A DNA stretch of 64,000 bases from Candidatus Latescibacterota bacterium (lineage in GTDB: Bacteria; Latescibacterota; UBA2968; UBA8231): the NCBI GenBank assembly GCA_965203355.1, contig OZ241889.1, positions 928,001-992,000 of the forward strand, written 5' to 3'. Numbering within the stretch: position 1 is the first letter of the stretch; each line of letters starts with the position of its first letter. Below the pieces are notes generated by a model. That model had not been told where the DNA came from. It worked only from the letters and a program-made list of their open reading frames with translations, and ran no database searches. The position numbers and the translations under genes were made by a program. Shown in pieces: positions 31,146 to 46,153 of this stretch.

Positions 31146-31418
31146 TCAGTGCATAGGCGATTGAAGTGCCAATCGCTTTTCTATATATGAGGTCAAGGAA
31201 CGCACTGAATCGAATAGGTCAATCCGCAGGTCTTCGTCTTCTACTTCAAATCCGAACTCTTCTTCAAGGGCAAAGACGATTTCTAACGCGGCAATGGAAT
31301 CGGCACCAAGGCCCTCGCCAAAGAGGGACTCGTCATCGGCGATGTCTTCGGGATTGATCTTGAGTTGGAGTCCTTGGACAAGGGCTTTTTTTACTCGTTG
31401 AGCTATGTCGTCGCGCAT
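31146..31418 (-). CDS. acyl carrier protein
   Basis: GLGADSIAALEIVFALEEEFG phosphopantetheine-Ser motif; acidic, 90 aa. Confidence 0.9.
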   Translation of the reverse strand: MRDDIAQRVKKALVQGLQLKINPEDIADDESLFGEGLGADSIAALEIVFALEEEFGFEVEDEDLRIDLFDSVRSLTSYIEKRLALQSPMH

Positions 31419-33319
31419 GGCCTCTCCTCTTCTTCTTCGGCAAAGTGATCGATGACCACCTCGACAGCCCGATGGACATCCACTTCGTCTGCAATAGATA
31501 CCGCCGGAAGACTGAACGTCTGTTCCAAGCGATTCAGTTTGTCGCGCACTTCGGCCGCGGTCATGGGCTGCGGTTTAATAGAGATTCGGCCATAGGCTGT
31601 GCGAATGTGTTTCGCCTGATCGCTCATGGCCAACAAGAGCGTAGGTGCTTGGCACAAGGCGCGAATGCCATCGATGGTGTCTTGAATGTAGTCGTTGGGA
31701 TCTACACTGTTGACTACTAATAGGCAGGCTTGGGGCTTGACCCCCATTAGGAACGCAAGGGTAGGTAGCGTCTGGGTCTGCTGTTCTTCCACGTTGTAAG
31801 GCACTGTGCCGGATTGGGTGCCGACTAAAATTAGGTCTGGCCGTTTGCGGTGGTTGATTTCTCGCATCTTGGCGTCGAGGTAGGGAGCGTAGTAGTCCAG
31901 CGGCATCTCAATTGACGCCGCGTAACCCATGGGGAACGCGCAGTCCATGCCGAAGAGGGCCGAGTGGTGTTCGGTGCCGACTTGTCCCACTCGGTAGCCT
32001 AGTTCTAGCAACCGGCGGCGCAGGGCGAGTTGCAGGGAAAACTTCCCCTGCTGCGAACTGGTGCCTGCGACCGCTAAGACGGGCACATCGACTGGGGGCC
32101 ATTGCTCCGATGAAAGGAGGGTTTGTCGTATTTCTTTGGAGGACAGGGCTGGATAGTATAACCGCAAGCCCTTGGCTTCAGCCTTTTCGTACAGATCGGC
32201 GTACTGTTCGTGCGGCAGTGCCAAGAGGCTGAAGATGTGGACGCCTTGGTCTATGGCGGTTTGGACTGCTTCGCGCAATAGGTCTCTTTTGCGGATGAGA
32301 CTCAGTTGGTCCATATAGCCTAAAATAAGGGTGTCGGCTCCCTGTAGGGCGGCGGCCAGACTGGGCGCAATGGACAGGCCCGCTGGCGGCAGGCCAATGG
32401 CCTCGCCAGCATCTTGACCGACCAAGCCCTTGCCGACCGGATCGCCTACGCCGACGATCTCAAAGCCGAGCAGGTCGCGCCCGCGCACCAGCGAGTGCAT
32501 CTCCTTGTTGTAGGGATAGAGGGCGGCTTTCTGAATGTAGGTGAACGAGCCCTCGGGACGGGGCCGAGAAGCGATTTTAGGTGCGGGGGTACGGGTGGGT
32601 TCGGGAAGAGCGTGAGCGCGGAGGATTTCGCGCACCTGTGCTAGGCTCGCGCCGGGCTTGGCTTGGCGGATGAGGGCAAGCAGGCCGGTGATGTGGGGCG
32701 CGGCAAAGCTGGTGCCCGCCAGCATGATCTCAGGCGGCTCCAGCCAACACACTCGCTGGAGGTCGCCCCGGGCTATGCACTCGACAGCGTCTCCTTGGCG
32801 ATAGTTGTAATCGTATAGATTCTGCAATGGCCCCGCGCCCACGCCGATGACTTGGGGCAAGTGGGTTGGATAGCTCTCGCGGCCTTCTTGGTGATCGGCG
32901 GCGACCATTAGAATGCCTTGATCGGCGGCTTGTTGGCAGACGCGGGCCAAAGTGTCTCGCATCGTTACCTCGGTGGTGCCCAAGCTCAGGTTGATGATGT
33001 CCATACCCTGTTCTATGGACCATTTGATGGCTGCGATTAGCAAGCGGCTATCGGCTTGAAGCGATTCGTCGAAGATACGCACACTATACAGAGCCGCTTG
33101 GGGTGCTTTGCGGCGAATGATACCGGCGCAGGCCGTGCCGTGGCCGGCGCAATCGGCGTGGGCGGCACTGTAGTGAATCACGCTGTCTCTGTCTGGCCCG
33201 ATAGTGATGGCGATACCACCAGCCACCGGGCCGATTTTGGGATGATTGGGTACGAGGCCGCTATCGACGATGGCGATCTTGACGCCGTGGCCGGTCTGGT
33301 CGGCAAAGGGAAAGCTCAT
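31403..33319 (-). CDS. S8 subtilisin-like peptidase fused to DUF1611/TIGR04066-like domain
   Basis: IVDSG, GHGTACAG, GTSFAAP triad; then 'AALYPYNKEMHSLVR' and P-loop-like 'VAGTSSQQGKFSLQL', 'GQVGT', 'DLILVGTQSG'; no signal peptide. Confidence 0.85.
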   Translation of the reverse strand: MSFPFADQTGHGVKIAIVDSGLVPNHPKIGPVAGGIAITIGPDRDSVIHYSAAHADCAGHGTACAGIIRRKAPQAALYSVRIFDESLQADSRLLIAAIKWSIEQGMDIINLSLGTTEVTMRDTLARVCQQAADQGILMVAADHQEGRESYPTHLPQVIGVGAGPLQNLYDYNYRQGDAVECIARGDLQRVCWLEPPEIMLAGTSFAAPHITGLLALIRQAKPGASLAQVREILRAHALPEPTRTPAPKIASRPRPEGSFTYIQKAALYPYNKEMHSLVRGRDLLGFEIVGVGDPVGKGLVGQDAGEAIGLPPAGLSIAPSLAAALQGADTLILGYMDQLSLIRKRDLLREAVQTAIDQGVHIFSLLALPHEQYADLYEKAEAKGLRLYYPALSSKEIRQTLLSSEQWPPVDVPVLAVAGTSSQQGKFSLQLALRRRLLELGYRVGQVGTEHHSALFGMDCAFPMGYAASIEMPLDYYAPYLDAKMREINHRKRPDLILVGTQSGTVPYNVEEQQTQTLPTLAFLMGVKPQACLLVVNSVDPNDYIQDTIDGIRALCQAPTLLLAMSDQAKHIRTAYGRISIKPQPMTAAEVRDKLNRLEQTFSLPAVSIADEVDVHRAVEVVIDHFAEEEEERPCATT

Positions 33320-33816
33320 GGGTTTGTCTCCGCATCTATGGCGATCGGGAATCCGGCTGCCTGCCAAGCCGGCCAACCGCCCGTCAGAACATAGCCGTCA
33401 TCGCGAATCGACTCTTTGACCAGCCGTTTGGCGAGCGCGTAGCTACTCCGGCAACCGCCTCCTGAGCAGTAGGTGATGACTTGGACATTAGCCGGATAAG
33501 CCGCTAACATCTGACGCAGGCTATTTGTGGAAGCATGGGAAGGAACACGTAAAGCACCGGGGATGTGACCGGCCTCATAAGAGTGTGCTGAGCGTGCGTC
33601 CACAAACACGGCGTCGCCGCGGTCGAAAGCCTGTTTGGCCTCGGTCGCAGAGAGCCGGTGAATGCCCTGCATTGCGGAGGAACTAAGCGTTGTATTGGCC
33701 TCTAGGACATCCAACGACAGAGCGGGCTGCACGGTATAGAACCAGATGGCGTACACGCCGCCGGCCAGTACGGCCAGCGAGAGGATTAGACCCATTCTGA
33801 TCAGAAGGCGACTCAT
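33316..33816 (-). CDS. membrane-anchored rhodanese-domain protein
   Basis: N-terminal TM, FVDARS...Y.AGHIPGA, TYCSGGGC, LTGGWPAW. Confidence 0.9.
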   Translation of the reverse strand: MSRLLIRMGLILSLAVLAGGVYAIWFYTVQPALSLDVLEANTTLSSSAMQGIHRLSATEAKQAFDRGDAVFVDARSAHSYEAGHIPGALRVPSHASTNSLRQMLAAYPANVQVITYCSGGGCRSSYALAKRLVKESIRDDGYVLTGGWPAWQAAGFPIAIDAETNP

Positions 33817-33827
33817 GCGATTCGCTC

Positions 33828-35561
33828 CTAGGCAGCCTCTTGTTGATGGTGAACAAACTGTGCGTAATAGCCCGACCTTTGGCGCAGCACGCCCGGCGGC
33901 CCCTGCTCGACTACGTGCCCGTTAGACAAGCAGATCACTTCATCTACGCCTTGTACCGCACTGAGTCGGTGGCTGATTAAGAGAATCGTTTTGTCGTGGC
34001 ATAGGTGCTGGATATGCTGAAAGAGGACTTCTTCGCTTTCAGCGTCGAGTGCGGCGGTGGCTTCGTCCAAAATCATCAGGTCCACCGGCTGCAACAGGGT
34101 ACGGGCTAGGGCGATGCGCTGCTTTTGGCCACCGGAGAGTTGTACGCCCTGTTCGCCGATTTTCGTCTGCCGGTCCAAGCCATCCAGTCCTACTTGATTG
34201 ATCACATTTTCGACTCTGGTCGGTTCGCACTTGAAGTTGCCGTAGTGAATATTGTCCCAGACCGTGTCGTTAAATAGGTGGACTTGTTGGCTGACGAAAC
34301 CAATGTGTGCTCTCAGTTCACGTAGGCTGATCTTTTCAAGTGGTGTACCATCTATAAGGATGCGGCCTTGATCGGGCTGATAGAACCCGCACAACAGATT
34401 CGCCAGCGTCGTCTTGCCGCTGCCACTCATGCCAACTAAGGCGTAACTCTTGCCCTTGACGAGCTTCAGGTTCACGCCTTGTAAGACAGGTTGGTCGTCG
34501 AAGCGGAAGTGGATGTCTTGCAATTCAATGGCGCGTTGATAGACGAAGGGTTTGCGCCCGGTGTGAATCGCCTCTTGAGTGGGCAACTGCATGAATTCCA
34601 GCACTCGGCGCATGGAGACTAAGCCGCGCACTAAGTCCATGTACAGATTGTGCAGTCCGCTCACCGGGCCAAACAGACGCGAGGTGTACTGTATAAAGGC
34701 AATGAGCGTTCCGATTGTCATGGCGCCCTGCATTACTTGATAGCCGCCCCAGCCCATGATGAACGCAGGCGTTAGAGCCACTAACCCCGCCGAGATGTTG
34801 TGCATAGACGAGGAGTATAGCACGTTGCGCATGGAGAACGAGATCAAGTCGTTGAGGGCCGATCTAAAGAGATACTTCTCGTGGCCATCGCTGTTGGAGA
34901 GTTGAATCAGCGGGATGTGGCTAAACCGCTCGATGGAATAGCTGGAGAGTTTGGCACTTTGTTGCTGAATGGATTCGACGACCTTTCTGATTTTAGGCTG
35001 AAAGTGGAGTAGGTTGGCCACAAACAGGGGGAGGACCAACACAGAGAGCAGAAACAAGGTGACGTCTAGCCAGCACAAGATCGCCACGAGGCCGATTAAG
35101 GTTAGTACACTATGTAGGAAACTCAGGGCACTTGCCGTCAGCACCGATTGGATTACGCCCACGTCGCTGTTGAGGCGAAAGACGATGTCGCCGACGGTCT
35201 GTCGATTGTGGAAGCTGAGCGGCAAGCGAATGAGGTGTTGGAATAACTCGACGCGGATGTTGCGGACGATGCGTCTGCCGGCCCAAGCATACAGATAATC
35301 AGAAGTGAAGGATAGGATCAAGTGGGTGATGGTGATGCCGATCAAGATGGCGAGGGCAACCAACAGCGGTTGGAGCTGTTTGGCTGGTACAATCTTATCA
35401 ATGATGATTTTTAAGATGTAAGGGGGTGCGAGTGAGCCGATTGTGATGCACAATACGCAGAATAGTACCACAATCCCCTGAAACCAGTACGGAGTTAGAA
35501 AGGGTAGAAAGAAGCCGATGGCGGAACGGGCTGTTTTGGGCGCAGACATGAGAAACCTCAA
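33828..35561 (-). CDS. ABC exporter (permease + ATPase, no C39 domain)
   Basis: TM domain, GMSGSGKTT, LSGGQKQR, ILDEAT, ISHR. Confidence 0.95.
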   Translation of the reverse strand: MRFLMSAPKTARSAIGFFLPFLTPYWFQGIVVLFCVLCITIGSLAPPYILKIIIDKIVPAKQLQPLLVALAILIGITITHLILSFTSDYLYAWAGRRIVRNIRVELFQHLIRLPLSFHNRQTVGDIVFRLNSDVGVIQSVLTASALSFLHSVLTLIGLVAILCWLDVTLFLLSVLVLPLFVANLLHFQPKIRKVVESIQQQSAKLSSYSIERFSHIPLIQLSNSDGHEKYLFRSALNDLISFSMRNVLYSSSMHNISAGLVALTPAFIMGWGGYQVMQGAMTIGTLIAFIQYTSRLFGPVSGLHNLYMDLVRGLVSMRRVLEFMQLPTQEAIHTGRKPFVYQRAIELQDIHFRFDDQPVLQGVNLKLVKGKSYALVGMSGSGKTTLANLLCGFYQPDQGRILIDGTPLEKISLRELRAHIGFVSQQVHLFNDTVWDNIHYGNFKCEPTRVENVINQVGLDGLDRQTKIGEQGVQLSGGQKQRIALARTLLQPVDLMILDEATAALDAESEEVLFQHIQHLCHDKTILLISHRLSAVQGVDEVICLSNGHVVEQGPPGVLRQRSGYYAQFVHHQQEAA

Positions 35562-36250
35562 ATATCGGTCAAAATGTGGTTGCCGTTTATGATTTCTAGT
35601 AGAGACACGCCCTCCAGTTTGCTCAGCGGCGAGTCAGTGAAGCTAGCGGTTTTAACGTTGCGTGCTGGTAGGTGGGTAGAGACGAGTTTCCAGAAGAAGA
35701 GTTTGGTGAATTGTTCTCTGCCTGCTAATGGGTAGTGGTATTGGATAATGGTTTGGCGTTCGTCGATGAGAAAGATCGCCGGCGTCTGCTCAAAGAAATC
35801 TGCATACTTTTTTTGATCGTTCACTCGCATAGTTCCCAAGTGGTATTTGAGCTTGAATGCTCGTGCAAATTGAGCGGCAGCCGATGGCATAGAGGACAGG
35901 GCGTATATGGGTAACTGGTCGGGGTCTTCTATATGGTCATACACATGTTGTAGGGTCTCTAACACCAGCTCTAAGCATGGCTGACAGGAGGTGGGATCGA
36001 AGAGTAATACTAAGCCACCTTGAGTTTTGGCGAAGTCAGTGTGAGCGGTCTCGCCATCGACTTGGAAGGAAATCACGGGGAAAGACTGACCGATCCAGCG
36101 GTCGGATTTGAAGATGTTGATTACATAATCGCGGTAGTTTTGCACATCCACGACATAGGTCTTACTGAACCAAGCTACAACGACGGTCAAAGCGACGAGT
36201 TGTAAGAGGTTCGTAGCAGCCAATAGCTTTATTAAGGTCCTTTGTCTCAT
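35558..36250 (-). CDS. membrane-anchored thioredoxin-fold protein (CxxC)
   Basis: N-terminal TM, 'LLFDPTSCQPCL', 'QTPAIFLID' cis-Pro-type motif. Confidence 0.7.
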   Translation of the reverse strand: MRQRTLIKLLAATNLLQLVALTVVVAWFSKTYVVDVQNYRDYVINIFKSDRWIGQSFPVISFQVDGETAHTDFAKTQGGLVLLFDPTSCQPCLELVLETLQHVYDHIEDPDQLPIYALSSMPSAAAQFARAFKLKYHLGTMRVNDQKKYADFFEQTPAIFLIDERQTIIQYHYPLAGREQFTKLFFWKLVSTHLPARNVKTASFTDSPLSKLEGVSLLEIINGNHILTDI

Positions 36251-36314
36251 GGTCTCTGTCCCCTATTGTCAAATGGCATCAACGGATAGGTAATGTGTCC
36301 AGTACGCATGTGAT

Positions 36315-37529
36315 CTAATGAGGTTGAAAGACAAGTTCGTGGATCTCCACGGTGCCATTGGAGTCCTCTTCTCTTCCCGGTAGAGGCGATTGATAGGAGT
36401 ATAGACAACCGTCCCAATGCGTAAGGTCGTTTCCAATAAAAGATTGCATAGCCTCTTCAAAAGCATAGGCTTTGATCCGGTTTGGTGTCTTTAGGTCATA
36501 GACGATTCCCTCCCATTTAATCGCGCCTCCGGCTAGAAAGTCAGAGATAGAGGAGGGATGCATGTAGGCAACAAGAATGTACTGGTCCTGCACGAGCACT
36601 ATAGATTGCACTTCACTCATTTTACGGTCCAATTGGCTTATTTCCTCGGTGGTTTTATCCTCAAAGCTGTAGTAGCGCTCCGGCAAGGGACGATACTTCT
36701 CTAGTTGATAGCCGAACTGACGTATCAGCCGACCTGTGTCCGGATCGATTGCTGTGACTTTGTAGTCATTTCTTTTTATATAGTACAACTGATGTCGAGT
36801 CGGACTATAGGCTAAAGAACCGCTGGCCATGAAAGATGGTTGGCCAGTGAACAATGGAATGCGATAAATAGGTTCGTATTTTGCCGAGGTTGCCGGTTCG
36901 AACCGCTGCAATTCTACGATATGGCCACTATCGCTAGTTGAACGGGTCACTCTCGTCAAGTACACTGCGCCGTCTCGTCCAGTGACAATCCGAGCCGCCG
37001 ACGACGTACTAAAACGGGGAGACCGGTCTAAGAACTGCCCCTGCCGATCATAGCGGTGTAAGTATCCTGCCGATCTATCGAGAATGTAAAGATGGCCTTG
37101 GGGGGTTATGGCCATATTGTTAGGGGTACCATATTCTCCCGGTCCCATTCCTCGCTTTCCAATGGATCGGATATACTGGCCGTCCGAGATGCTGAATTCA
37201 AAGGCTTGGTCAACGATAAAGTCCGAGAGTAACAGAGTGCCCTCTGGGGAGAATCCCATCCAGTGCACACCGCTGATGGCGGGGGTATCCTCGTCATAAG
37301 CCAATTCGACTTTCCCTTTCAAGACCAGGTCGACCTGGCCGACATACTCGACCGGCACTTGGGGGATGGTCGACTCGTCAGATGCTCCTGAGCTATCATC
37401 TGCGGACCATGCGACACTTTCCTTGATGTTGTCCCATAGCCCGGCGTCGGCTGATTGAACCGGGAAGGCGAGGACGCTGGCGACGAACAGGAGGCGGCTA
37501 TTGAGCAGGATGGAGTGTGCGGTTTTCAT
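36315..37529 (-). CDS. secreted 6-bladed beta-propeller (NHL-like), copy A
   Basis: Signal peptide ending ADA; 'IGKRGMGPGEY..P..MAI...G.LYILD' blade motif; AAGGAG RBS. Confidence 0.85.
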   Translation of the reverse strand: MKTAHSILLNSRLLFVASVLAFPVQSADAGLWDNIKESVAWSADDSSGASDESTIPQVPVEYVGQVDLVLKGKVELAYDEDTPAISGVHWMGFSPEGTLLLSDFIVDQAFEFSISDGQYIRSIGKRGMGPGEYGTPNNMAITPQGHLYILDRSAGYLHRYDRQGQFLDRSPRFSTSSAARIVTGRDGAVYLTRVTRSTSDSGHIVELQRFEPATSAKYEPIYRIPLFTGQPSFMASGSLAYSPTRHQLYYIKRNDYKVTAIDPDTGRLIRQFGYQLEKYRPLPERYYSFEDKTTEEISQLDRKMSEVQSIVLVQDQYILVAYMHPSSISDFLAGGAIKWEGIVYDLKTPNRIKAYAFEEAMQSFIGNDLTHWDGCLYSYQSPLPGREEDSNGTVEIHELVFQPH

Positions 37530-37620
37530 AAGGCGGTTCTCCTTGACCAACAGTTTCAACGAAGACTTGTACCTTGTTGGGCGTCAGTGAATTGTATGCG
37601 ATTTCGTCAACCACGGTTGC

Positions 37621-37656
37621 AGTACTCCGACCCCGGTTAGTTGGGGCCGGAGTACT
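37621..37656 (-). promoter_or_regulatory. stem-loop 3' of precursor A
   Basis: mRNA AGUACUCCGGCCCC-8 nt loop-GGGGUCGGAGUACU; no U tract. Confidence 0.75.
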
Positions 37657-37688
37657 TAGGACCGGGGTATGGGTTCTGGCGTAGGGCA

Positions 37689-37895
37689 TTACTTCACGAA
37701 ACAGACCTTAGTGTCGCCTTCGCCGCAGTCGTTTCCTTCTGCGTAATGGCATCCGTAATACTTGGCAAGGCAGGGGTCGCCACCGCAGGTGGTATTTTCC
37801 ACGCGGTACGGTGCCACGTCCCATTCGCCTTCCGTCACGTAGGCTTGGATGAGGAACCTACGCCTCACTGGGGTTTTCTTGCTGAGATTTGTCAT
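37689..37895 (-). CDS. Cys-rich precursor peptide A (68 aa)
   Basis: AAGGAG RBS; leader MTNLSKKTPVRRRFLIQAY; core with 5 Cys; paralog of 39360..39569. Confidence 0.85.
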   Translation of the reverse strand: MTNLSKKTPVRRRFLIQAYVTEGEWDVAPYRVENTTCGGDPCLAKYYGCHYAEGNDCGEGDTKVCFVK

Positions 37896-38007
37896 GGGAT
37901 TACTCCTTGGCGAAGCTCATAAATGAGCAGTGTGTGAAAAAGGAAACCAGAACCCATACCTTCTGGTGTGCAAAAGATAGATCGCCGACATGATAGGCTG
38001 GTGTGGT

Positions 38008-39264
38008 TTAATGAAGTTGAAAGACGGGTTCGTAGATCACCACGGTGCCATTGGAGTCCTTTTCCCGCCCCGGTAGCGGTGATTGATAGGAGTATAAACG
38101 ACCATTCCAATGCGTAAGTTCGTTTCCAATGAAACGATGAAAACGAACTATGCTGCTATCCGTAGGGTCAGGATATGATTGAATAGCCTCTTCAAAAGCA
38201 TAGGCTTTGATCTGGTTTGGTGTCTTTAGGTCATAGACGATTCCTTCCCATTTGAGTGCGTTATTGGCTAAATCGTCGAAGACGGAGGGATGTAGGTAGG
38301 TAACGAAAATGTACTGGTCCTGCACGAGCACCATAGATAGCACAGAACTCATTTCACGGTCCAATTCGCTTATTTCCTCAGTGGTTTTAACCTCAAAGTT
38401 GTAGTAGCGCTCTGGTAAGGGACGATACTTCTCTAGTTGATAGCCGAACTGATGTATCAGGCGACCTGTCTCTGGGTCGATTACTGTGACTTTGTAATCA
38501 TTTGTTCCCATGTAATACAACTGATGTCGCGTCGGGCTGTAGGCTAAACGGGTGTAACCGGACATTTTTTGGGAGATGAAAGACGGTTGGTTAGTGGACA
38601 ATGGAGTGCGATAGATGGGTTCGTATTTTGCCGAGGTTGCCGGTTCGAGCCGCTGCAATTCTATGATATAACCACTAGGTGTCCTAACTGATCTCGCTAA
38701 GTACACTGCGCCGTCTCGTCCGGTGACAATCCGAGCCCCTTTAGAAAAGTGAGGAGACCGGTCTAAGAACTGCCCCTGCCGGTCATAGCGGTGTAAGTAT
38801 CCTAACCCTTTATCGAGAATATAAAGATAGCCTTGGGGGTCTATGGCCATATTGGTAGGGAAACCATATTCTCCCGGTCCCGGTCCGTACTTTCCAATGG
38901 AGCGGATGTACTGGCCGTCCGCGATGCTGAATTCAAAGGCTTGGCGACCGACAGCATCCGAGAGTAGCAGAGTGCCTTCTGGGGAGAATCCCATCCAACC
39001 CACATTGCCGATGCCGGGGGTATCCTCGTCATAAGCTAGCTCGACTTTCCCTTTCAAGACCAGGTCGACTTGGCCGACATACTCGACCGGCACTTGGGGG
39101 ATGGTCGGCTCGTCAGATGCTCCTGAGCTATCATCTGCGGACCATGTGACACTTTCCTTGATGTTGTCCCATAGCCCGGCGTCGGCGGGTTGAACCGGGA
39201 AGGCGAGGACGCTGGCGACGAACAGGAGGCGGCTATTGAGCAGGATGGAGTGTGCGGTTTTCAT
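38008..39264 (-). CDS. secreted 6-bladed beta-propeller (NHL-like), copy B
   Basis: Close paralog of 36315..37529; 'IGKYGPGPGEY'. Confidence 0.85.
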   Translation of the reverse strand: MKTAHSILLNSRLLFVASVLAFPVQPADAGLWDNIKESVTWSADDSSGASDEPTIPQVPVEYVGQVDLVLKGKVELAYDEDTPGIGNVGWMGFSPEGTLLLSDAVGRQAFEFSIADGQYIRSIGKYGPGPGEYGFPTNMAIDPQGYLYILDKGLGYLHRYDRQGQFLDRSPHFSKGARIVTGRDGAVYLARSVRTPSGYIIELQRLEPATSAKYEPIYRTPLSTNQPSFISQKMSGYTRLAYSPTRHQLYYMGTNDYKVTVIDPETGRLIHQFGYQLEKYRPLPERYYNFEVKTTEEISELDREMSSVLSMVLVQDQYIFVTYLHPSVFDDLANNALKWEGIVYDLKTPNQIKAYAFEEAIQSYPDPTDSSIVRFHRFIGNELTHWNGRLYSYQSPLPGREKDSNGTVVIYEPVFQLH

Positions 39265-39291
39265 AAGGCGGTTCTCCTTGACCAAAATTGC

Positions 39292-39327
39292 AGTGCTCCG
39301 ACCCCGGTTGGTTGGGGCCGGAGCACT
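39292..39327 (-). promoter_or_regulatory. stem-loop 3' of precursor B
   Basis: Same hairpin as 37621..37656 with a compensatory A-U to G-C change. Confidence 0.75.
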
Positions 39328-39359
39328 TAGGACCAGGGTATGGGTTCTGGCGTAGGGAA

Positions 39360-39569
39360 TTACTTCGTGAAGTGGACCTTAATATCTCCTTCGCTGCACT
39401 CACTTTTCTCTGGGTCCCTATGGCATCCGTAGTACTTGGCAAGGCAGGGCTCGCCATCGCAGATAGCACGTGTCACGAGGAACGGATTCACGTCCCACTC
39501 GCCTTCCATCGCGTAGGCTTGGATGAAAAGCCTGCGCCTCACTGGGGTTTTCTTGCTGAGCGTTTTCAT
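39360..39569 (-). CDS. Cys-rich precursor peptide B (69 aa)
   Basis: AAGGAG RBS; leader MKTLSKKTPVRRRLFIQAY; core with 4 Cys, CxxxxCLAKYYGC. Confidence 0.85.
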   Translation of the reverse strand: MKTLSKKTPVRRRLFIQAYAMEGEWDVNPFLVTRAICDGEPCLAKYYGCHRDPEKSECSEGDIKVHFTK

Positions 39570-39679
39570 AGGATTACTCCTTGGCGAAGCTCATAAATGA
39601 GCGGTGTGTGAAAAAGGAAACCAGAACCCATACCTTCTGGTGCACAAAAGATGAATCGCCGACATGGTAGGCTGTGTAC

Positions 39680-39800
39680 CACGTTTTGTCTCCCGCGCGA
39701 ATCTCGTTCCACAACCCAGCGTTGGCTGGCACAGCCGTGCTGCCGAGGCAAGGAAGCGGGCGGCGAGTACCATGTGAATGTTTGAGAATGTGGTTTTCAT
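39680..39800 (-). pseudogene. frameshifted 5' remnant of a further secreted (propeller-like) gene
   Basis: MKTTFSNIHMVLAAR, then in another frame ...PANAGLWNEIR, matching the propeller N-terminus MKTAHS...ADAGLWDNIK. Confidence 0.6.
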
Positions 39801-40110
39801 CAGGCTGTGCTCCTTTTGTTATTAATAAAAGTAGCGATTGTCGTGGCACTTCGGTATCGGGTGATCACCTGATTTTTGACTAATTCTTATCGGGTGATCA
39901 CCTGATTTTTTGAAAAAACGCCTGATGTGATCTTGTCTGGCGGCGAGTAACACGTGGATGTTTGAGAATATGGTTTTCATTAGACTGTGCTCCTTTTGTT
40001 ACTAATAAAAGTAGCGATTGTCGTGGTGCTTCGGTATCGGGTGATCACCTGATTTTTGACTAATTCTTATCGGGTGATCACCTGATTTTTTGAAAAAAAT
40101 GCCTGATATG
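39771..40110. repeat. 180-bp-period tandem duplication of promoter, RBS and first codons
   Basis: 39771..39930 nearly identical to 39951..40110. Confidence 0.9.
39856..40086. promoter_or_regulatory. four 18-bp palindromic boxes ATCGGGTGATCACCTGAT
   Basis: At 39856, 39889, 40036, 40069; pairs 33 bp apart; upstream of the peptide operon and beside the response regulator gene. Confidence 0.75.
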
Positions 40111-40288
40111 GGCTTGTAGCCGAGGTTTGGCGGACTTGTCTGTGCGCCTTTGGACTCCGCTCGTGCGCCAAGAGCGTAGGCATAGCTAGGTGAATCTACT
40201 TAGTACAGGCTGTAAGGTACAGGGCGCAGAGAAAGAGGGAGGGCGAGGCCGTTCTGGGGACTAGTGGTGATTGGGACTGCCACGCCGC

Positions 40289-40942
40289 TTAGCGAGGCTG
40301 GTCCTCTTCGTCCATTAGTCCCTCTCTGATCGCGTACGCTGTCAGTTTGGCCACGCTGTGCAGGTCGAGCTTATTCATTATGTGCTGGCGGTGGGTGCCG
40401 ATGGTCTTTTTGCTCAGATAGAGTTCTTCGGCTATTTGCGCCGTTGTTTTTCCTTGGGCGACGCATCGCAGCACCATGTGCTCACGCGACGTCAGGGTAG
40501 AAAGTGGTTTGCTGGAGGCATCAGAATGACGCGCCTTGCTGGTGTTGATGGGATTAGTCAGTTGCGAACTCACGTACTGGCGACCAGCTTCCACCTCCCT
40601 GAGTGCTTTCACTAACTCGTTGATGAAGTTCGTTTTCAGCAGATACGCCCAGCCTCCCGCTTCGAACAGGCCATCCACAAATCGCTTATCTGCGTGTTCC
40701 GACAGCGCGACGAACTTCACCTGCGGATGCGTCGTCCGTATCTGGCGTGTTACCTCGAGGCCGCTCAGGTCGGGTAGCCCCATATCCACGATCACAAGGT
40801 CGGGGTGGTAGGAGCGGATCAAGTCAATAGCCGTGCGACCGTCGGATGCCTCGCCGACGACTTCAATATCGCTTTCTTGTTCGAGCCGTGTGTGCAGGGC
40901 TTGGCGCACCATAGTGTGGTCTTCTACCAGAAAAATCTTCAT
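40289..40942 (-). CDS. NarL/LuxR family response regulator
   Basis: VEDH, IVDMGLP phospho-Asp, LTSRE...G.TT.QIAEEL.LS.KTI.THR..IMNKL. Confidence 0.95.
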   Translation of the reverse strand: MKIFLVEDHTMVRQALHTRLEQESDIEVVGEASDGRTAIDLIRSYHPDLVIVDMGLPDLSGLEVTRQIRTTHPQVKFVALSEHADKRFVDGLFEAGGWAYLLKTNFINELVKALREVEAGRQYVSSQLTNPINTSKARHSDASSKPLSTLTSREHMVLRCVAQGKTTAQIAEELYLSKKTIGTHRQHIMNKLDLHSVAKLTAYAIREGLMDEEDQPR

Positions 40943-42012
40943 GGGGAATGGCCCTCCTCTTCAGCTAAAGAACGCGGAAGCACTAGTAGGCAACGCGTAC
41001 CTTTACCGGGCGTTGATTGGATGGTCAAATAGCCACCGATATGGAGCAGATGCTCTTGAATGCTGAACAGACCGAAGTGGCTGGCTCGGTCCATCTGCTC
41101 TAGACGCACTGTATCAAAGCCCTTACCCTCGTCTTCTATCACCACCTGCAACTGGGCTACATCTCGCCGCAAGGAGACGGTGGCTTGGTCTGTGTTGGCG
41201 TGCCGTGAGACATTGATCAGCAACTCGCGAATGGACCTGTACACTAAGCCGCGTATGTCGTGGTTGTGTATCTCCCACTTGTCCTCGGCTTCCACGCGCA
41301 CGGTCAATCCATACTGGGAATGGAGGCGGTCGCCGAGGGCCTCTAAGCCTGGTACGAACCCTATGCCGTAGAGCACGGGTGAACTGCTGTCGGATGTCAT
41401 GGATCGGATGTGATGAGCCATTTCGTCCATGTTCTTCTCCAATGTATCGATCAAGGCTTCTCGTTCGGGGTCGTCGGAATGCCGCAGTGAATTGATCTCA
41501 ACCTTCGACAGCACCAATAGCTGCCCGATGGAATCGTGCAGATCGGCCCCAAGGCGCACCCGCTCGCGCTCTCTGTCAATTAAGAGTCTGGTCGCCAGTG
41601 CCTGCAACTTCTGGATGTGTCTTTCCATGCGCTTGTGCTTGCTGATTTTGCGGATGCTACCTTGATAACCTATGAGGGTGCCGTTTGCGGCTCGCCGAAC
41701 CGAGACCGTTAGGAACGCATCGAATTGGTGCCCGTTACCCGTTGTAAAAGCCGCTGTAAAGTCGCACACAACCTCTGCTTGCTCAATCTGTTCCTGAAAC
41801 CGCTTGTAATCATCTAAACGGGTGTAGAGGCGGCGGATGTTGGAGCCGATCAGGTCGGCGCGTTCGTGGGCAAATAGGGTACTGGCGGCAGGATTGGCAT
41901 CGACGATGGTCCCATCTCGCGCAGCGATGAAGAAGGCATCTGGCGACGCTTCAAACAGGTCGCGATAGAGTTTTGGGTCTCGCCTCAACTTTCTTGGCTC
42001 AGGCTTGCACAT
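40939..42012 (-). CDS. cytoplasmic PAS sensor histidine kinase (HisKA_3)
   Basis: PAS domain, ERVRLGADLHDSIGQ, ELLINVSRHA, EDEGKGF, FGLFSI, PGKGT; no TM. Confidence 0.9.
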   Translation of the reverse strand: MCKPEPRKLRRDPKLYRDLFEASPDAFFIAARDGTIVDANPAASTLFAHERADLIGSNIRRLYTRLDDYKRFQEQIEQAEVVCDFTAAFTTGNGHQFDAFLTVSVRRAANGTLIGYQGSIRKISKHKRMERHIQKLQALATRLLIDRERERVRLGADLHDSIGQLLVLSKVEINSLRHSDDPEREALIDTLEKNMDEMAHHIRSMTSDSSSPVLYGIGFVPGLEALGDRLHSQYGLTVRVEAEDKWEIHNHDIRGLVYRSIRELLINVSRHANTDQATVSLRRDVAQLQVVIEDEGKGFDTVRLEQMDRASHFGLFSIQEHLLHIGGYLTIQSTPGKGTRCLLVLPRSLAEEEGHSP

Positions 42013-42055
42013 AGCTGCTCCTCGTGATAGAGTAGGCCCGCTAGTCGCCCCTAAA

Positions 42056-42682
42056 CTATGTTGGTGTCTCTCGCCGCGCCAACTTTTGCCATGCCGTTCG
42101 CGCCGCTCGATAGCTTGCCTGCGTGTCCACATCCACAAAGATGCCCTCGTCCTCAACGGGCACTTCGACGACGCTGGCCGCGTTTTTTGCCAAGACCGGC
42201 CGCGCGCCCCGATCGCCCGTCAACGCGAGTAAAGCATCTCGATGGGCCCGGCCGATCGCTACGGGATGGCCGCGCTGCCCAGCGCACACTGGCACGGCGA
42301 TCGCCGCTCTACTTTTTAACGCCTCGGCGACCTTTAGCATTGTCGTACCCGCTATCTGCGGCATGTCTCCTAGGGCCAAGAAGTAGCCTTGCTCGCCGAT
42401 GGCCGCTTCCACGCCCACTCGGATAGAAGAGGCCATCCCGGCGGCAAAATCGGGGTTGTGTACCAACCGCACGGGATAGCGGCGCAACCTTTCCTCTACC
42501 GCTACCCGCTGATGCCCTGTCACCACGACCACCTCCCCCAAACCCACCTCGCAAACCCGCTCCACCACAGCTTGGAGGACGCACTGCTCCTGCCAAGGCA
42601 GCAGCAACTTGTTGGCCTTTTTCATCCTAGCGGAACGCCCCGCCGCCAATACGATCCCGCTAAGGTCTGCGAGTCTGATCAT
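42056..42682 (-). CDS. mocA: molybdenum cofactor cytidylyltransferase (MocA-like)
   Basis: VLAAGRSARM..NKLLL, GMASSI..G, LGDMP, GHPV, GDRGAR, DVDT. Confidence 0.8.
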   Translation of the reverse strand: MIRLADLSGIVLAAGRSARMKKANKLLLPWQEQCVLQAVVERVCEVGLGEVVVVTGHQRVAVEERLRRYPVRLVHNPDFAAGMASSIRVGVEAAIGEQGYFLALGDMPQIAGTTMLKVAEALKSRAAIAVPVCAGQRGHPVAIGRAHRDALLALTGDRGARPVLAKNAASVVEVPVEDEGIFVDVDTQASYRAARTAWQKLARRETPT

Positions 42683-42717
42683 TCCAATCTCCTAAGTAGG
42701 CCCGCCCCTACGCGCTT

Positions 42718-42766
42718 GACCACCGACCACTGACCACTGACCACCGGCCACCGACCACTGACATCC
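42718..42766. repeat. heptamer tandem repeat (GACCACY) x7
   Basis: In the mocA-coxG divergent intergenic region; two units degenerate. Confidence 0.85.
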
Positions 42767-42774
42767 CGACGCGA

Positions 42775-42804
42775 TTGACAAGAACGGGCAAAATTTTGTA
42801 ATAT
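42775..42804 (+). promoter_or_regulatory. putative sigma70 promoter of the coxG-S-L-M operon
   Basis: TTGACA - 18 nt - TAATAT. Confidence 0.5.
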
Positions 42805-42847
42805 CCACCTTACATCCGCTTCTGGCCCTTAACAATAGCATCGGCCC

Positions 42848-43297
42848 ATGCAGCTTACAGGCTCTCATACTTTTCGCGCTCCAAGGCAGATCCTGTGGGA
42901 CTTGCTCAACGATCCCGAGGTGTTGGCGCGCATCACCCCAGGCGTCGATACCTTGGAGCAAACCGGCCCCGGCCAGTACCAAGCCGTATTGCACATCAAA
43001 ATGGGGCCGATCAACAGCACCTTCAACGGGGTGCTGCAAGTCGTCGATAGCAAGGAGCCGGAAAGCTATCGCTTGCTCATTGATGTCAACGGCAAGATCG
43101 GCCGCATTGCAGCCGAGGGTCAGGTCCGGCTTTCCGCCCAAGACCACCAGACGACCACAGTGGAACTCGAGGGCGGATCGCAGTTGACGGGCCGGTTGGC
43201 CAGCATGGGGCAGCGCCTGCTCTCGGGCGTGGCGCGGATGTTCACCAACCAGTTTTTCAAGGCACTGGAGCGCGAGATCCCTAATTCAACTAGATAG
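42848..43297 (+). CDS. coxG: CoxG / SRPBCC family protein
   Basis: 'LWDLLNDPEVLARITPG', 'GRLASMGQRL'. Confidence 0.85.
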   Translation: MQLTGSHTFRAPRQILWDLLNDPEVLARITPGVDTLEQTGPGQYQAVLHIKMGPINSTFNGVLQVVDSKEPESYRLLIDVNGKIGRIAAEGQVRLSAQDHQTTTVELEGGSQLTGRLASMGQRLLSGVARMFTNQFFKALEREIPNSTR

Positions 43298-43306
43298 GAG
43301 GCGACT

Positions 43307-43771
43307 ATGGCAGTAGCGATTGAAGTCACTGTCAACGGCCAGACTCACAAGCACGAGGTGGAGCCGCGCCAGATGCTCGTCAGCTATTTGCGCGAGGAGT
43401 TGGGCCTGACGGGCACTCACGTCGGCTGCGACACCAGCAACTGCGGGGCCTGTACCGCTATCGTCAATGGCCAAGCCGTCAAGGTCTGCACCATGCTCGC
43501 GGCGCAAGCCGACGGCGCGGAGATAACGACCATTGAAGGACTTGCAGACAACGGCACACTGCATCCGTTACAGGTCGCCTTCCGCGAGGCCCACGGCTTG
43601 CAGTGCGGCTTTTGCACGCCTGGCATGATCATGGCCGCTTGGCAGTTGCTCGAGCGCAACGCAACGCCCAGCCCCGCCGAGATCCGCCACGCGCTCGAAG
43701 GCAACTTTTGCCGCTGCACGGGCTACGACAACATCATCAAGGCGGTCCAACGCGCCGCCGAGAGCGCCTAG
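43307..43771 (+). CDS. coxS: CoxS-like (2Fe-2S) subunit
   Basis: GCDTSNCGACT, QCGFCTPG, GNFCRCTGY. Confidence 0.9.
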   Translation: MAVAIEVTVNGQTHKHEVEPRQMLVSYLREELGLTGTHVGCDTSNCGACTAIVNGQAVKVCTMLAAQADGAEITTIEGLADNGTLHPLQVAFREAHGLQCGFCTPGMIMAAWQLLERNATPSPAEIRHALEGNFCRCTGYDNIIKAVQRAAESA

Positions 43772-43780
43772 GAGGCCGCT

Positions 43781-46153
43781 ATGGGAGTGATAGGACAATC
43801 CATCAAGCGCGTCGAAGATCAGCGCTTTATCACCGGCAAGGGCCGCTACACCGACGACATAGCCCTGCCGAACTCGACTTTTGCGGCGATCGTGCGCAGC
43901 CCACACGCCCACGCCGCGATTAAAAACGTCAATACGACGGCCGCCGCGGCCGCCGCTGGCGTGGTCGCCGTCTTTACCGGGGCCGACCTCGAAGCGGCTG
44001 GCGTCGGTGGCCTGCCCTGTGGCTGGCAGGTGGATTTCAAAAACGGCGACACCATGAAGGAGCCGGCCCATCCGGTGCTGGCCGCGACCAAGGTGCGCCA
44101 CGTCGGCGATCCGGTCGCCATCGTCTTGGCCGAAAGCCGCGAGCAAGCCGCCGATGCCGCCGAGTTGGTGGCCGTGGATTACGAGGTTTTGGACGCGGTT
44201 GTCTCTGCTACCCAAGCGACGGTCGAGGGCGCGCCCCAGTTGTTCGACGAGGTGCCCAACAACACGTCCTTTGACTGGGCGCTCGGCGACCAAGCGGCAA
44301 CGGACGCCGCCTTGGCCCGCGCCGCGCACGTCACCACGTTGGAGTTCGACAACCAACGGCTCATCCCCAATGCGATTGAGCCGCGCTGCGCCATTGGCGA
44401 TTACGATGGCGCACGCGACCACTACACGCTCTACACCTCGTCGCAGAACCCCCACGTCATTCGCCTGCTGATGACGGCGTTTGTCTTGGGGCTGCCCGAG
44501 CACAAGGTGCGGGTGGTGTCGCCGGATGTGGGTGGCGGCTTTGGCTCCAAAATTTTTCACTATGCCGAAGAAGTCCTCGTCACGTGGTGCTCGCGCCAGC
44601 TTGGCCGTCCGGTCAAGTGGACCGCCAGCCGCAGCGAGGCGTTCCTCACCGACGCCCACGGCCGCGATCATCACACCAAGGTCGATCTCGGGCTCGACGC
44701 CGATGGGAATTTCGTCGGTCTGCGGGTCAAGACGGTTGCCAACCTCGGCGCGTACCTATCGACTTTCGCGCCCTGTGTGCCCACGTATCTCTACGGTACG
44801 CTCTTACAGGGGCTATACACGACCCCGGCGGTCCACGTTGATGTCACGGGCGTCTTTACCAACACCACGCCAGTTGACGCGCTGCGCGGCGCGGGTCGCC
44901 CCGAGGCCACGTACGTCCTCGAGCGCACTATTGAGCAGGCCGCCTTGGAGACCGGCCGCGACCCGGCCCAACTGCGGAGCCAAAACTTCATCCCGCCTTT
45001 TGACGGCGTCGAGCAAGAAGGCTACCAGACCCAAGTAGCCCTGCAATACGACAGCGGCAACTACCGGGCCGCGCTCGAAAAAGCCCTCGCAGCCATCGGC
45101 TACGACGAACTGCGGGCCGAGCAGGCCCAGGCCCGCGCCGCCGGCCATGGCCGTCATATCGGCATTGGCTTTTCGACCTACATCGAAGCCTGCGGCATTG
45201 CGCCGTCGGCCGTGGTTGGCGCGTTGGGGGCGCGCGCTGGCTTGTTTGAGAGCGCGGGCGTCCGGGTCCAGCCCACCGGCAAGGTCACGGTATTTACCGG
45301 CAGTCACTCGCACGGGCAGGGCCACGAGACGACCTTTGCCCAAGTGGTGGCCGACGGGTTGGGCGTGGGGATCGAAGACGTGGACATCATTCACGGCGAC
45401 ACCGAGTCCGTGCCCTTTGGCATGGGCACGTATGGCTCGCGCTCGCTGGCCGTCGGCGGCACAGCCATCGTCAAGAGCATGGACAAGATCAAGGAGAAGG
45501 GAGCCAAGATCGCCGCCCACTTGCTCGAAGCCGCCGAGGAGGACCTCGAATTCGTCGAGGGCCGTTGGACGGTCAAGGGCACCGATCAGTCGATCTCCTT
45601 TGGCGAGGTCGCGCTGGCCGCGTATGTGCCGCACAATTTTCCCGCAGGGCTGGAGCCGGGGCTGGAGTTTACCAGCTTCTACGACCCGGCCAATTTCACC
45701 TTCCCCTTTGGTGCTCATATAGCGGTCGTGGAGGTGGACGCCGAGACTGGCGTAGTCGCGGTGCGGCGCTACGTCGCTGTCGACGACGTGGGCAATATCG
45801 TCAATCCCATGATCGTCGAAGGTCAAGTTCACGGCGGCATTACGCACGGCATTGGCCAAGCCCTGTTTGAGGAGGCTGTGTACGACGACAGCGGCCAGCT
45901 CATTTCCGGCTCGTACATGGACTACGTTCTGCCGCGCGCCGACGATTTGCCTTCCTTTGAGACCGACCACACTGTCACGCCCTGCCCGCACAATCCCCTC
46001 GGCGTCAAGGGTGCTGGCGAGACCGGCACGATTGGTTCGCCGCCGGCCATTGTCAACGCCGTGATCGACGCCCTGTGGCCGTTGGGTGTGCGCGACCTTG
46101 CTATGCCGCTGACGCCGCAGAAGGTGTGGCAAGCCATCCAGCAAGTTAGCTAA
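43781..46153 (+). CDS. coxL: form II CoxL-like molybdopterin-binding subunit
   Basis: [19 protein letters not shown] (form II-like), HGQGHET, KGAGETG. Confidence 0.85.

What the first reader, a model, noticed from the sequence alone, without database searches (positions are those of the whole stretch)
37666..39634. Each precursor ORF is enclosed by a perfect 14-nt inverted repeat that competes with a local hairpin (possible mRNA switch or processing stem)
Seen: GGTATGGGTTCTGG (37666-37679 and 39337-39350) lies just past each stop codon. Its exact reverse complement CCAGAACCCATACC (37947-37960 and 39621-39634) lies about 50 nt before each start. In the mRNA the upstream copy sits in a local hairpin ACCAGAA-GGUAUGGG-UUCUGGU whose loop is complementary to the downstream CCCAUACC. 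Both elements are identical in the two modules although the enclosed coding sequence has diverged. Inference: 5'-3' long-range pairing closes the precursor mRNA into a loop, as in type I toxin mRNAs or RNase III processing stems. This could raise precursor output relative to the enzymes or gate translation. A DNA-level role as cassette ends is an alternative.
Basis: partly seen in the sequence, partly recalled or inferred. Interest (0 to 1): 0.8.

Follow-up and report, generated by a model that had tools for sequence, protein, structure and literature searches.

The report
RNA helix bracketing a peptide-precursor gene
The inverted repeat is real and is the core of a roughly 20-base-pair RNA helix that ties the leader of each small peptide-precursor message to its trailer; relatives keep it through compensating changes, so it probably sets the precursor message apart from its operon neighbours.

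Summary
In detail: the 14-mer and its reverse complement sit exactly where reported. On the minus-strand mRNA they bracket two tandem 68/69-aa precursor ORFs.

- **Helix length.** The pairing is longer than reported: 15 bp plus a 5-bp extension across a 2-nt bulge.
- **Folding.** It appears in the minimum-free-energy fold of both modules.
- **Relatives.** I found 11 more cassettes in 10 of 167 Latescibacterota genomes.
- **Covariation.** In the alignable set of 5 sequences, 6 of 20 helix pairs change on both sides and 88% of cells stay paired. RNAalifold predicts the helix independently.
- **Deeper lineages.** Four have arms of different sequence at the same positions (two strong, two marginal), two have only a weak 9-10 bp helix, and two have none.
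- **3' hairpin.** The downstream arm always ends within -5 to +10 nt of a very stable hairpin that lacks a U tail.
- **Local hairpin.** The "competing" hairpin is lineage-specific, so a conserved switch is not supported.

Best reading: an RNA stem that brackets the cistron, for RNase III-type processing or for stabilising the precursor mRNA. This mechanism is inferred; no RNA data were available. A DNA-level role is unlikely but not excluded.

The parts
39620..39641 (-). Module 2, 5' element. A 22-nt hairpin-capable sequence whose last 15 nt (39620-39634) form the upstream arm of the long-range helix. Its first 5 nt form the helix extension.
39360..39569 (-). Precursor ORF 2 (69 aa), with a conserved N-terminal leader-like motif and a Cys-containing C-terminal part.
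   Evidence: no Pfam or NCBIfam hit
39332..39351 (-). Module 2, 3' element. The downstream arm (core 39337-39350) plus the CUGGU extension. It is complementary to the whole 5' element (20 bp, 2-nt bulge, duplex -33.9 kcal/mol).
39292..39327 (-). Module 2, strong 3' hairpin (14-bp stem). It starts 5 nt after the extended arm and has no U tail.
   Evidence: (I16)
38008..39285 (-). DUF5128 six-bladed beta-propeller gene 2, with a signal-peptide-like N-terminus. It lies between the two cassettes.
37946..37967 (-). Module 1, 5' element (identical to that of module 2). It begins 41 nt after the stop codon of propeller gene 2.
37689..37895 (-). Precursor ORF 1 (68 aa).
37661..37680 (-). Module 1, 3' element (core arm 37666-37679). 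The extension has one A.C mismatch at 37664. Module 2 and two relatives' contigs carry the pairing base there.
37621..37656 (-). Module 1, strong 3' hairpin. It differs from module 2 by one compensatory pair.
   Evidence: (I15 against I16)
36315..37559 (-). DUF5128 propeller gene 1, downstream of cassette 1.

Best explanation
The inverted repeat is the core of an intramolecular RNA helix. It is about 20 bp long in the window and 12-27 bp, often with bulges, in relatives. It forms between the 5' leader and the 3' trailer of the precursor-peptide cistron inside a polycistronic minus-strand transcript. The 3' arm abuts a very stable hairpin that is not a canonical terminator.

The helix most likely marks the small cistron for double-strand-specific endonucleolytic processing of the RNase III type, protects the ends of the excised message, or does both. 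The precursor mRNA then has its own abundance and lifetime, presumably higher, relative to the flanking propeller, oxidoreductase-like and exporter genes.

In the window lineage both elements can also fold as complementary hairpins, so loop-loop contact may nucleate the long-range pairing.

Shown: the complementarity, its conservation by compensatory change, its fixed position next to the 3' hairpin, and its thermodynamic dominance.

Inferred: that both arms are transcribed on one RNA, that RNase III or any nuclease cuts there, and the effect on precursor yield.
For: (1) The repeat is exact and non-random (0 of 100 shuffles; 1 of 150 for each module).

(2) The minimum-free-energy folds of both about 400-nt cassettes contain the helix, with z = -5.7 and -3.5. 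The duplex is -33.9 / -29.3 kcal/mol against -8.1 for the local hairpin.

(3) Covariation in the alignable set (window x2, L002, L005, L010). Of 20 helix pairs, 6 change on both sides and 87.9% of cells are paired. For helix plus 3' hairpin together, 90.5% are paired against 25-48% when partners are slid by 1-3 columns, and 0 of 500 shuffles reach the covariation score. RNAalifold predicts the same helix unprompted.

(4) Deeper lineages have arms of unrelated sequence at the same places. L021 has a 12-bp perfect core and L023 about 27 pairs with 3 bulges; each was reached by 1 of 150 shuffles. L019 and L012 were each reached by 8 of 150.

(5) In 11 of 11 cassettes with an arm, the 3' arm ends -5 to +10 nt from the base of the strongest 3' hairpin. 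Its distance from the stop codon varies from +9 to +104.

(6) G-U pairs: the sense-strand helix score exceeds the antisense score in 6 of 9 cassettes, for example L010 48 against 34 and L023 48 against 40. In the 3' hairpin, relatives' changes at 37645 and 37647 are G-U/Watson-Crick exchanges only on the minus-strand RNA.

(7) Two contigs of about 90% identity from another metagenome show no listed change inside either arm. They do show changes at 37664 and 37680 next to the arm, and 37664 restores the extension pair.

(8) In L021 an IS element inserted between the propeller gene and the 5' arm left arm-ORF-arm intact.

(9) Helix lengths of about 18-27 bp fit the roughly two helical turns that RNase III substrates usually have (length requirement recalled, not checked here). 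An RNase III gene is present in 5 of 5 relatives tested.

(10) Precedents exist. Operon-internal cis duplexes are cut by RNase III in yabJ-spoVG (bioRxiv 10.64898/2026.09.18.752551, abstract read). RNA structures next to a precursor ORF set the precursor:enzyme ratio in mccA (PMC4231749, abstract and Discussion read).
Against: No RNA evidence at all. No RNA run holding the locus was listed, so the transcription start, the transcript ends and any cleavage are unknown.

The helix is not universal. L011 and L026, both in one genome, show nothing (22 and 136 of 150 shuffles as good). The 9-10 bp helices of L008 and L009 are not significant on their own (74 and 104 of 150).

In the non-cognate control the cognate 3' flank was the sole best partner in only 5 of 13 rows. 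Lineages share arm motifs, and GC-rich flanks raise the background.

The covariation set has only 5 sequences, 2 of them paralogues. The shuffle control does not correct for relatedness.

In the window the arms are perfect Watson-Crick, so the strand test is neutral there (37/38 and 40/39).

With four identical arms, an equilibrium model of the 2.1-kb two-module RNA pairs the outermost arms (P = 0.998) rather than each cassette's own. Which arms pair in vivo is therefore open.

15 bp plus 5 bp with a bulge is at the short end for RNase III.
Confidence: 0.5

Rival explanations
1. The helix is a closed-loop or switch element that is not cleaved. It holds the precursor mRNA in a 5'-3' paired form. 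That form either protects it from decay without cleavage, or keeps it in a state that changes when the 3' end is trimmed or the local hairpin refolds (hok-like logic, or ribosome recycling on a short ORF).
For: The structural evidence is the same as for the best explanation. In the window, L005 and L010 the 5' element can refold into a local hairpin of -8.1 kcal/mol. Complementary hairpin loops could make a kinetic switch.
Against: The helix leaves the Shine-Dalgarno sequence and the start codon free; the arm ends 24-51 nt before the ATG.

The alternative local hairpin is not conserved. It is weakened in L002 and was not seen in L019, L021, L023 or L012.

The distance from the stop codon to the 3' arm varies from +9 to +104, so coupling to terminating ribosomes is not conserved.

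The peptide is hydrophilic and Cys-rich, not a membrane toxin.
Confidence: 0.2
2. The repeat acts at the DNA level. The arms would be recombination sites of an invertible segment (inverton), ends of a mobile cassette, or paired binding sites for a DNA-binding regulator.
For: A perfect inverted repeat flanks a roughly 270-bp segment that carries an ORF with its ribosome-binding site. In the window the helix has no G-U inside the 14-mer, so DNA and RNA readings are equal there. Compensatory change is also expected for recombination sites.
Against: In relatives the helices carry G-U pairs and 1-3 bulges: 19 G-U against 2 A.C in alignments that were optimised for G-U, and sense exceeds antisense in 6 of 9.

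All 13 of 13 cassettes lie in the same orientation as their neighbouring genes (read). Relatives' contigs are collinear across both arms.

The duplication and indel boundaries lie outside the arms.

The motif is not dispersed in 4 relatives' genomes; counts are at or below the reversed-pattern control.

No recombinase-like motif was found in the window by a crude pattern scan (a weak test).
Confidence: 0.08
3. The two complementary hairpin elements are recognised in trans by an RNA-binding protein or a small RNA, and do not pair with each other.
For: Both elements can fold as hairpins in the window. Arm motifs recur between lineages, and non-cognate scores are high.
Against: A shared trans factor would conserve sequence, not complementarity. 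Yet arms differ completely between lineages while staying complementary within each cassette. The 3' element hairpin is weak (-4.5 and -0.9 kcal/mol).
Confidence: 0.07
4. The repeat is a by-product. The 5' hairpin plus T-run is simply the terminator of the upstream gene, and the downstream complement has no function of its own.
For: The consensus scan flags the hairpin with its T-rich tail as terminator-like in both modules. In most relatives the cassette directly follows a propeller gene.
Against: The stem is weak, with 7 pairs of which 3 are G-C. The T-run is absent in L005, and the hairpin is absent in several lineages. It does not explain six compensatory pairs or the fixed position of the 3' arm. 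Only about 35 nt remain between the hairpin and the Shine-Dalgarno sequence for a separate promoter.
Confidence: 0.05

Closest known systems
Cis-encoded duplex inside a polycistronic mRNA that forms an RNase III substrate: yabJ-spoVG of Staphylococcus aureus (bioRxiv 10.64898/2026.09.18.752551, abstract read). The classical rRNA-operon processing stems are a second example (recalled).
   Same: Distant segments of one operon transcript pair to give a double-stranded stem. This allows one cistron to be treated differently from its neighbours.
   Different: Here both arms immediately bracket a single tiny ORF and sit next to a very stable 3' hairpin. Cleavage has not been shown. The expected outcome is more precursor mRNA, not repression.
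icaR mRNA 5'-UTR/3'-UTR base pairing (PMC3868564, abstract read)
   Same: An intramolecular 5'-3' UTR pairing in a bacterial mRNA that also creates an RNase III substrate.
   Different: In icaR the 3' UTR pairs with the Shine-Dalgarno region and blocks initiation. Here the helix lies 24-51 nt upstream of the ATG and leaves the Shine-Dalgarno sequence free.
mccA-mccB intergenic RNA structure of the microcin C operon (PMC4231749, abstract and Discussion read)
   Same: An RNA structure directly after a peptide-precursor ORF, influenced by upstream sequences. It yields an abundant and stable short precursor transcript and sets the precursor:enzyme ratio.
   Different: In mcc it is an intrinsic terminator controlled by ribosome binding at the start of the operon. 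Here the 3' hairpin has no U tail, the cassette is mostly operon-internal, and the conserved feature is a 5'-3' helix.
hok-type type I toxin mRNAs with 5'-3' fold-back pairing (PMC9841398 seen in the search listing only; details recalled)
   Same: A long-range pairing of the two ends of a small-ORF mRNA, conserved by covariation, with an alternative local fold at the 5' side.
   Different: The ORF product is a hydrophilic Cys-rich 68/69-aa peptide beside export and maturation genes, not a membrane toxin. No antisense RNA partner or overlapping reading frame was looked for or seen. The alternative hairpin is not conserved.

Membership tests
RNase III processing stem flanking a cistron | An intramolecular duplex of roughly two helical turns formed by sequences on both sides of the unit | tested here: met
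   The helix is 15 + 5 bp with a 2-nt bulge in module 2 and 15 + 4 of 5 in module 1. In L002, L005, L010, L012, L019 and L023 it is 18-27 paired positions with 1-3 bulges. The window helix is at the short end. The length requirement is recalled.
RNase III processing stem flanking a cistron | The organism encodes RNase III | tested here: inconclusive
   The gene is present above the family cut-off in 5 of 5 relatives that carry a cassette. The window's own genome is not held.
RNase III processing stem flanking a cistron | Staggered double-strand cleavage within the stem, with mature RNA ends mapping there | not testable with these tools
   No RNA run holding the locus was listed. The runs that were laid were contigs only.
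icaR-type 5'-3' UTR translational repression | The 3' UTR pairs with the Shine-Dalgarno region | tested here: not met
   The upstream arm is at -72..-51 in the window, and its 3' end lies 24-51 nt before the ATG in all cassettes. AAGGAG at about -14..-9 lies outside the helix.
hok-like type I toxin mRNA fold-back | A small hydrophobic membrane-toxin ORF | tested here: not met
   The translations are hydrophilic and Cys- and charge-rich, with no hydrophobic stretch. This was judged by reading; no predictor was run.
hok-like type I toxin mRNA fold-back | Pairing of the true 5' and 3' transcript ends, plus a cis antisense RNA | not testable with these tools
   The transcript ends are unknown. No antisense promoter was sought beyond the consensus scan, which found none at the cassette.
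Intrinsic terminator / attenuator (5' hairpin with T-run) | A G+C-rich stem followed by a U tract, with an alternative structure that forms before the terminator is transcribed | tested here: not met
   The scan flags a 7-pair stem (3 G-C) plus a T-rich tail. The competing arm is transcribed about 280 nt later. The hairpin or U tract is missing in L005, L019, L021 and L023.
Inverton (invertible DNA segment) | Inverted repeats flanking the segment | tested here: met
   A 14-bp perfect repeat flanks 267-270 bp (I9 and I11).
Inverton (invertible DNA segment) | Both orientations present in the population, and a site-specific recombinase | tested here: inconclusive
   13 of 13 cassettes lie in one orientation relative to their neighbours. 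Contigs of two runs are collinear. A crude motif scan found no recombinase in the 64 kb. Raw reads and the whole genome were not available.
Any described RNA family (Rfam 15) | A match to a curated covariance model | tested here: not met
   0 matches at E <= 1 in 30000-45000 on both strands.

The most novel reading that the evidence does not exclude
The cassette is a self-contained 'closed-loop' peptide-precursor message. Two mutually complementary hairpins kiss and zip into a 5'-3' helix. The helix, stacked on the strong 3' hairpin, acts as a timed switch: it holds the tiny mRNA in a protected state and releases it, or recycles ribosomes on it, only after processing. This would be hok-like logic put to use for secreted-peptide production in an uncultivated phylum, and portable as a module, since the window duplicated it together with its propeller gene.
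Probability: 0.12. Interest if true: 0.8.

Novelty: new variant of a known kind. Interest (0 to 1): 0.55.

Why it matters
Operons that make modified or secreted peptides need far more precursor than enzyme. The known solutions are mostly terminators or hairpins after the precursor gene.

A helix that brackets the whole precursor cistron, supported by covariation, would be a different and portable way to give one gene in an operon its own mRNA fate. It comes from Latescibacterota, a phylum without cultured representatives or RNA biology.

It also supplies a concrete, testable candidate RNase III site. It gives a structural signature (arm, small ORF, arm, strong hairpin) that could help find this rare peptide family: 28 cluster representatives among 1.84 billion proteins, with no Pfam or NCBIfam model.

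If RNA data show no processing, it is just a conserved stem of unknown use.

Tried and rejected
- **Rfam.** A scan of 30000-45000 at E <= 1 found nothing.

- **Precursor homologues.** A word-based search of 5.8 billion proteins returned only the window's two peptides.

- **Public collections.**
  - The genome-contig scan with one propeller protein found nothing.
  - With the alignment it gave 2 loci.
  - The metagenome scan gave one weak, unrelated propeller (L003, 26% identity), which I did not use.

- **L001.** It first looked like an 'empty site', which would have favoured a mobile cassette. I rejected this: its intergenic region holds the 5' leader and a truncated start of an L019-type precursor. 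It is therefore a decayed gene.

- **RNAduplex energies.** These were useless as a test, because huge interior loops let shuffles score as well. I replaced them with ungapped and gapped helix scoring.

- **Cognate versus non-cognate flanks.** The control was not clean; the cognate was the sole top score in 5 of 13 rows.

- **Dropped profile hits.** From the 14 of 167 genomes I dropped four.
  - L020 was inspected and has no leader motif.
  - L022, L024 and L025 were not inspected. Their matches cover only the C-terminal profile part, with E-values of 0.0097 (L022), 0.041 (L024) and 0.043 (L025).

- **RNA evidence.** No RNA holder was listed. Run X9, guessed to be RNA, laid nothing.

- **Two-module fold.** An equilibrium fold of the 2.1-kb RNA pairs the outer arms. 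I treat this as a caveat, not a finding.

- **Promoter scan.** It found no sigma-70-like site at the cassettes. The promoter type of this phylum is unknown.

- **Literature.** Searches for a precursor-bracketing helix and for this peptide system in Latescibacteria or sponge symbionts found nothing that describes it. Supplements were not consulted.

Full report
**Observation.** The 14-mer GGTATGGGTTCTGG occurs at 37666-37679 and 39337-39350, and its reverse complement at 37947-37960 and 39621-39634. There are no further matches with up to two mismatches in 64 kb, and 0 of 100 shuffles reached four matches.

All relevant genes are on the minus strand. Reading along the mRNA, they are:
- a histidine kinase (40939-42156);
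- a LuxR-type response regulator (40289-40942);
- a repeat-rich spacer;
- precursor ORF 2 (39360-39569, 69 aa);
- a DUF5128 six-bladed propeller (38008-39285);
- precursor ORF 1 (37689-37895, 68 aa);
- a second propeller (36315-37559);
- a 230-aa protein without a Pfam hit;
- an ABC exporter (33828-35561).

The two precursor-propeller modules are a tandem duplication of about 1.7 kb. The two inverted repeats are therefore one independent observation. Between the modules the 5' leader is 98/105 identical and the 3' flank 63/68. The CDS is 165/207 identical and third codon positions 79%. The flanks as a whole, not only the arms, are therefore better kept than silent sites.

**Anatomy.** In the mRNA the upstream arm is the 3' part of a 22-nt element that can fold as a 7-bp hairpin with an 8-nt loop, followed by a U-rich run (-8.1 kcal/mol). 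The downstream element is the reverse complement of that whole element minus two bases. The long-range helix is therefore 15 bp plus a 5-bp extension across an AA bulge: 20 bp in module 2, and one A.C mismatch in module 1.
- The duplex energy is -33.9 and -29.3 kcal/mol.
- The helix appears in the minimum-free-energy and centroid folds of both about 400-nt cassettes, with z = -5.7 and -3.5.
- Five to ten nucleotides further 3' lies a 14-bp G+C-rich hairpin (37621-37656 and 39292-39327). Its two copies differ by a compensatory pair (I15 and I16).
- Rfam has no match.

**Relatives.** The window's genome is not held. The precursor has no word-level relatives except its paralogue, but the propeller has relatives at 65-72% identity.

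An alignment-based scan gave two Candidatus Latescibacterota loci. From their handles I searched the 167 genomes of that phylum:
- the cassette DNA matched 2 of 167;
- a 4-sequence peptide profile matched 7 of 167;
- a 9-sequence profile matched 14 of 167 at E <= 0.05.

Ten genomes (11 cassettes) carry a peptide with the conserved N-terminal motif and the same neighbourhood. Four hits were dropped: one was inspected and has no leader, and three partial C-terminal matches were not inspected. A full HMMER search found only 28 cluster representatives at E <= 1e-3 among 1.84 billion, so the peptide family is rare.

**Conservation of the helix.** For each of the 13 cassettes I scored the best helix between leader (-110..-12) and trailer (+1..+200), with G-U and small bulges allowed, against 150 dinucleotide shuffles. 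The numbers of shuffles that scored as well were:
- window modules: 1 and 1;
- L002: 1;
- L005: 3;
- L010: 0;
- L021: 1;
- L023: 1;
- L012: 8;
- L019: 8;
- L011: 22;
- L008: 74;
- L009: 104;
- L026: 136.

L008 and L009 do have a 9-10 bp helix at the homologous position, but it is not significant alone. The two cassettes of G164 (L011, L026) have none.

The arm sequences differ between lineages while staying complementary within each cassette.
- In the alignable set (window x2, L002, L005, L010) the helix has 20 pairs. Six change on both sides and 87.9% of cells are paired.
- The 3' hairpin has 14 pairs. Five change on both sides and 94.3% of cells are paired.
- Together they are 90.5% paired, against 25-48% with partners slid by 1-3 columns. 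0 of 500 column shuffles reach the covariation score.
- RNAalifold, given only the alignment, predicts the same long-range helix and hairpin.

Two contigs of about 90% identity from another metagenome show no listed change inside either arm, with the caveat that seven changes were not shown. They do show changes directly beside the 3' arm. One of these, at 37664, gives the base that completes the extension, as in module 2.

In 11 of 11 cassettes with an arm, the 3' arm ends -5 to +10 nt from the base of the strongest trailer hairpin. Its distance from the stop codon ranges from +9 to +104. None of these hairpins has a U-rich tail.

In L021 an IS element lies between the propeller gene and the 5' arm, leaving arm-ORF-arm intact.

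**RNA or DNA?** Helix scores that allow G-U are higher on the mRNA-sense strand in 6 of 9 cassettes, lower in 2 and tied in 1. In the window itself the test is neutral.
- The relatives' substitutions in the 3' hairpin are wobble/Watson-Crick exchanges only on the minus-strand RNA.
- All 13 cassettes have the orientation of their neighbours.
- The motif is not a dispersed repeat in four relatives' genomes.
- The duplication and indel boundaries do not coincide with the arms.
- A crude scan found no recombinase motif in the window.

An inverton or other DNA-level role is thus unlikely, but raw reads were not examined.

**The local hairpin.** It is kept in the window, L005 and L010: 74% of cells are paired on the alignment, which misaligns the last two by one column. 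It is weakened by two mismatches in L002 and was not seen in L019, L021, L023 or L012. Its supposed competitor is made about 280 nt later, so it cannot act as an antiterminator. A conserved hairpin-versus-helix switch is therefore not supported. A role of the complementary loops in nucleating the long-range pairing in the window lineage is possible but inferred.

**Mechanism.** The conserved features are four:
- a helix of about one and a half to two and a half turns;
- the helix brackets one tiny cistron inside an operon;
- the ribosome-binding site is left free;
- a very stable non-terminator hairpin follows immediately.

The most economical reading is a processing or stability stem. Double-strand cleavage of the RNase III type would excise the precursor message, and the same pairing would protect its ends. 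RNase III genes are present in 5 of 5 relatives. The strong hairpin would cap either the 3' end of the precursor RNA or the 5' end of the downstream RNA.

This would uncouple precursor mRNA level from the propeller, oxidoreductase-like and exporter genes. The microcin C operon achieves the same goal with a ribosome-controlled terminator (PMC4231749, abstract and Discussion read). Operon-internal and 5'-3' UTR duplexes that serve as RNase III substrates are documented in S. aureus (bioRxiv 10.64898/2026.09.18.752551 and PMC3868564, abstracts read).

None of the mechanistic steps is shown here, because no RNA data could be found. With four identical arms the window RNA could also pair across modules, and an equilibrium model of the 2.1-kb RNA prefers the outermost pair.

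**Verdict.** The RNA-pairing interpretation is supported by comparative evidence. The 'competing hairpin switch' and 'cassette ends' parts are not. It is a new variant of a known kind of bacterial cis-acting RNA structure. Interest is moderate.

Noticed in passing
window 39759-40098: Two 180-bp direct repeats lie here (94% identical). Each carries two copies of an 18-nt palindrome, 33 nt apart start to start, just upstream of the first cassette and downstream of the LuxR-type regulator and histidine kinase genes (40289-42156). The same palindrome pair lies upstream of the operon in L002 (958-1004) and L005 (2828-2874). It is probably the operator or promoter region of the operon.
   Followed up: partly
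window 39650-39995; L001 3820-3960: Decayed module remnants. Two copies resembling the ribosome-binding site and start of the propeller gene lie at 39773-39815 and 39953-39995 (D7). The stretch around 39700-39740 matches L001, where the leader and a truncated start of an L019-type precursor remain between two propeller genes. G001 has no intact precursor.
   Followed up: partly
window 35558-36250 and homologues in L002, L005, L021, L023: A conserved protein of 230-260 aa follows the cassette in every locus examined. It has an N-terminal membrane anchor and a Cys-x-x-Cys motif, and it has no Pfam or NCBIfam hit. It looks like a thioredoxin-fold oxidoreductase partner of the Cys-rich peptide. 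This is my reading and is untested.
   Followed up: no
window 37689-37895, 39360-39569: The precursor peptides belong to a rare, unnamed family. There are 28 cluster representatives at E <= 1e-3 among 1.84 billion proteins, all but one 62-82 aa long. They have a conserved basic N-terminal motif and a variable Cys-containing tail.
   Followed up: partly
L021 497-1429: An IS element with 30-nt terminal inverted repeats (90% complementary) and a 295-aa transposase-like ORF is inserted between the propeller gene and the precursor cassette.
   Followed up: partly
L011 and L026 (G164, about 4.5 kb apart): This genome also has two precursor cassettes in tandem. Neither shows a leader-trailer helix above chance. 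It is an exception that the best explanation must accommodate.
   Followed up: partly
window 37908-37921, 39582-39595: A small 4-bp hairpin (loop of 4) lies just upstream of the Shine-Dalgarno sequence. It is conserved in both modules and in L002 and absent from L005 and L010.
   Followed up: no
window 31403-33376: A 657-aa ORF downstream in the same operon starts with a subtilisin-like active-site region, judged by eye only and not scanned. It is followed by further transport genes (HlyD-like and RND-like, 21759-29433) that are also present next to the propellers in L001.
   Followed up: no
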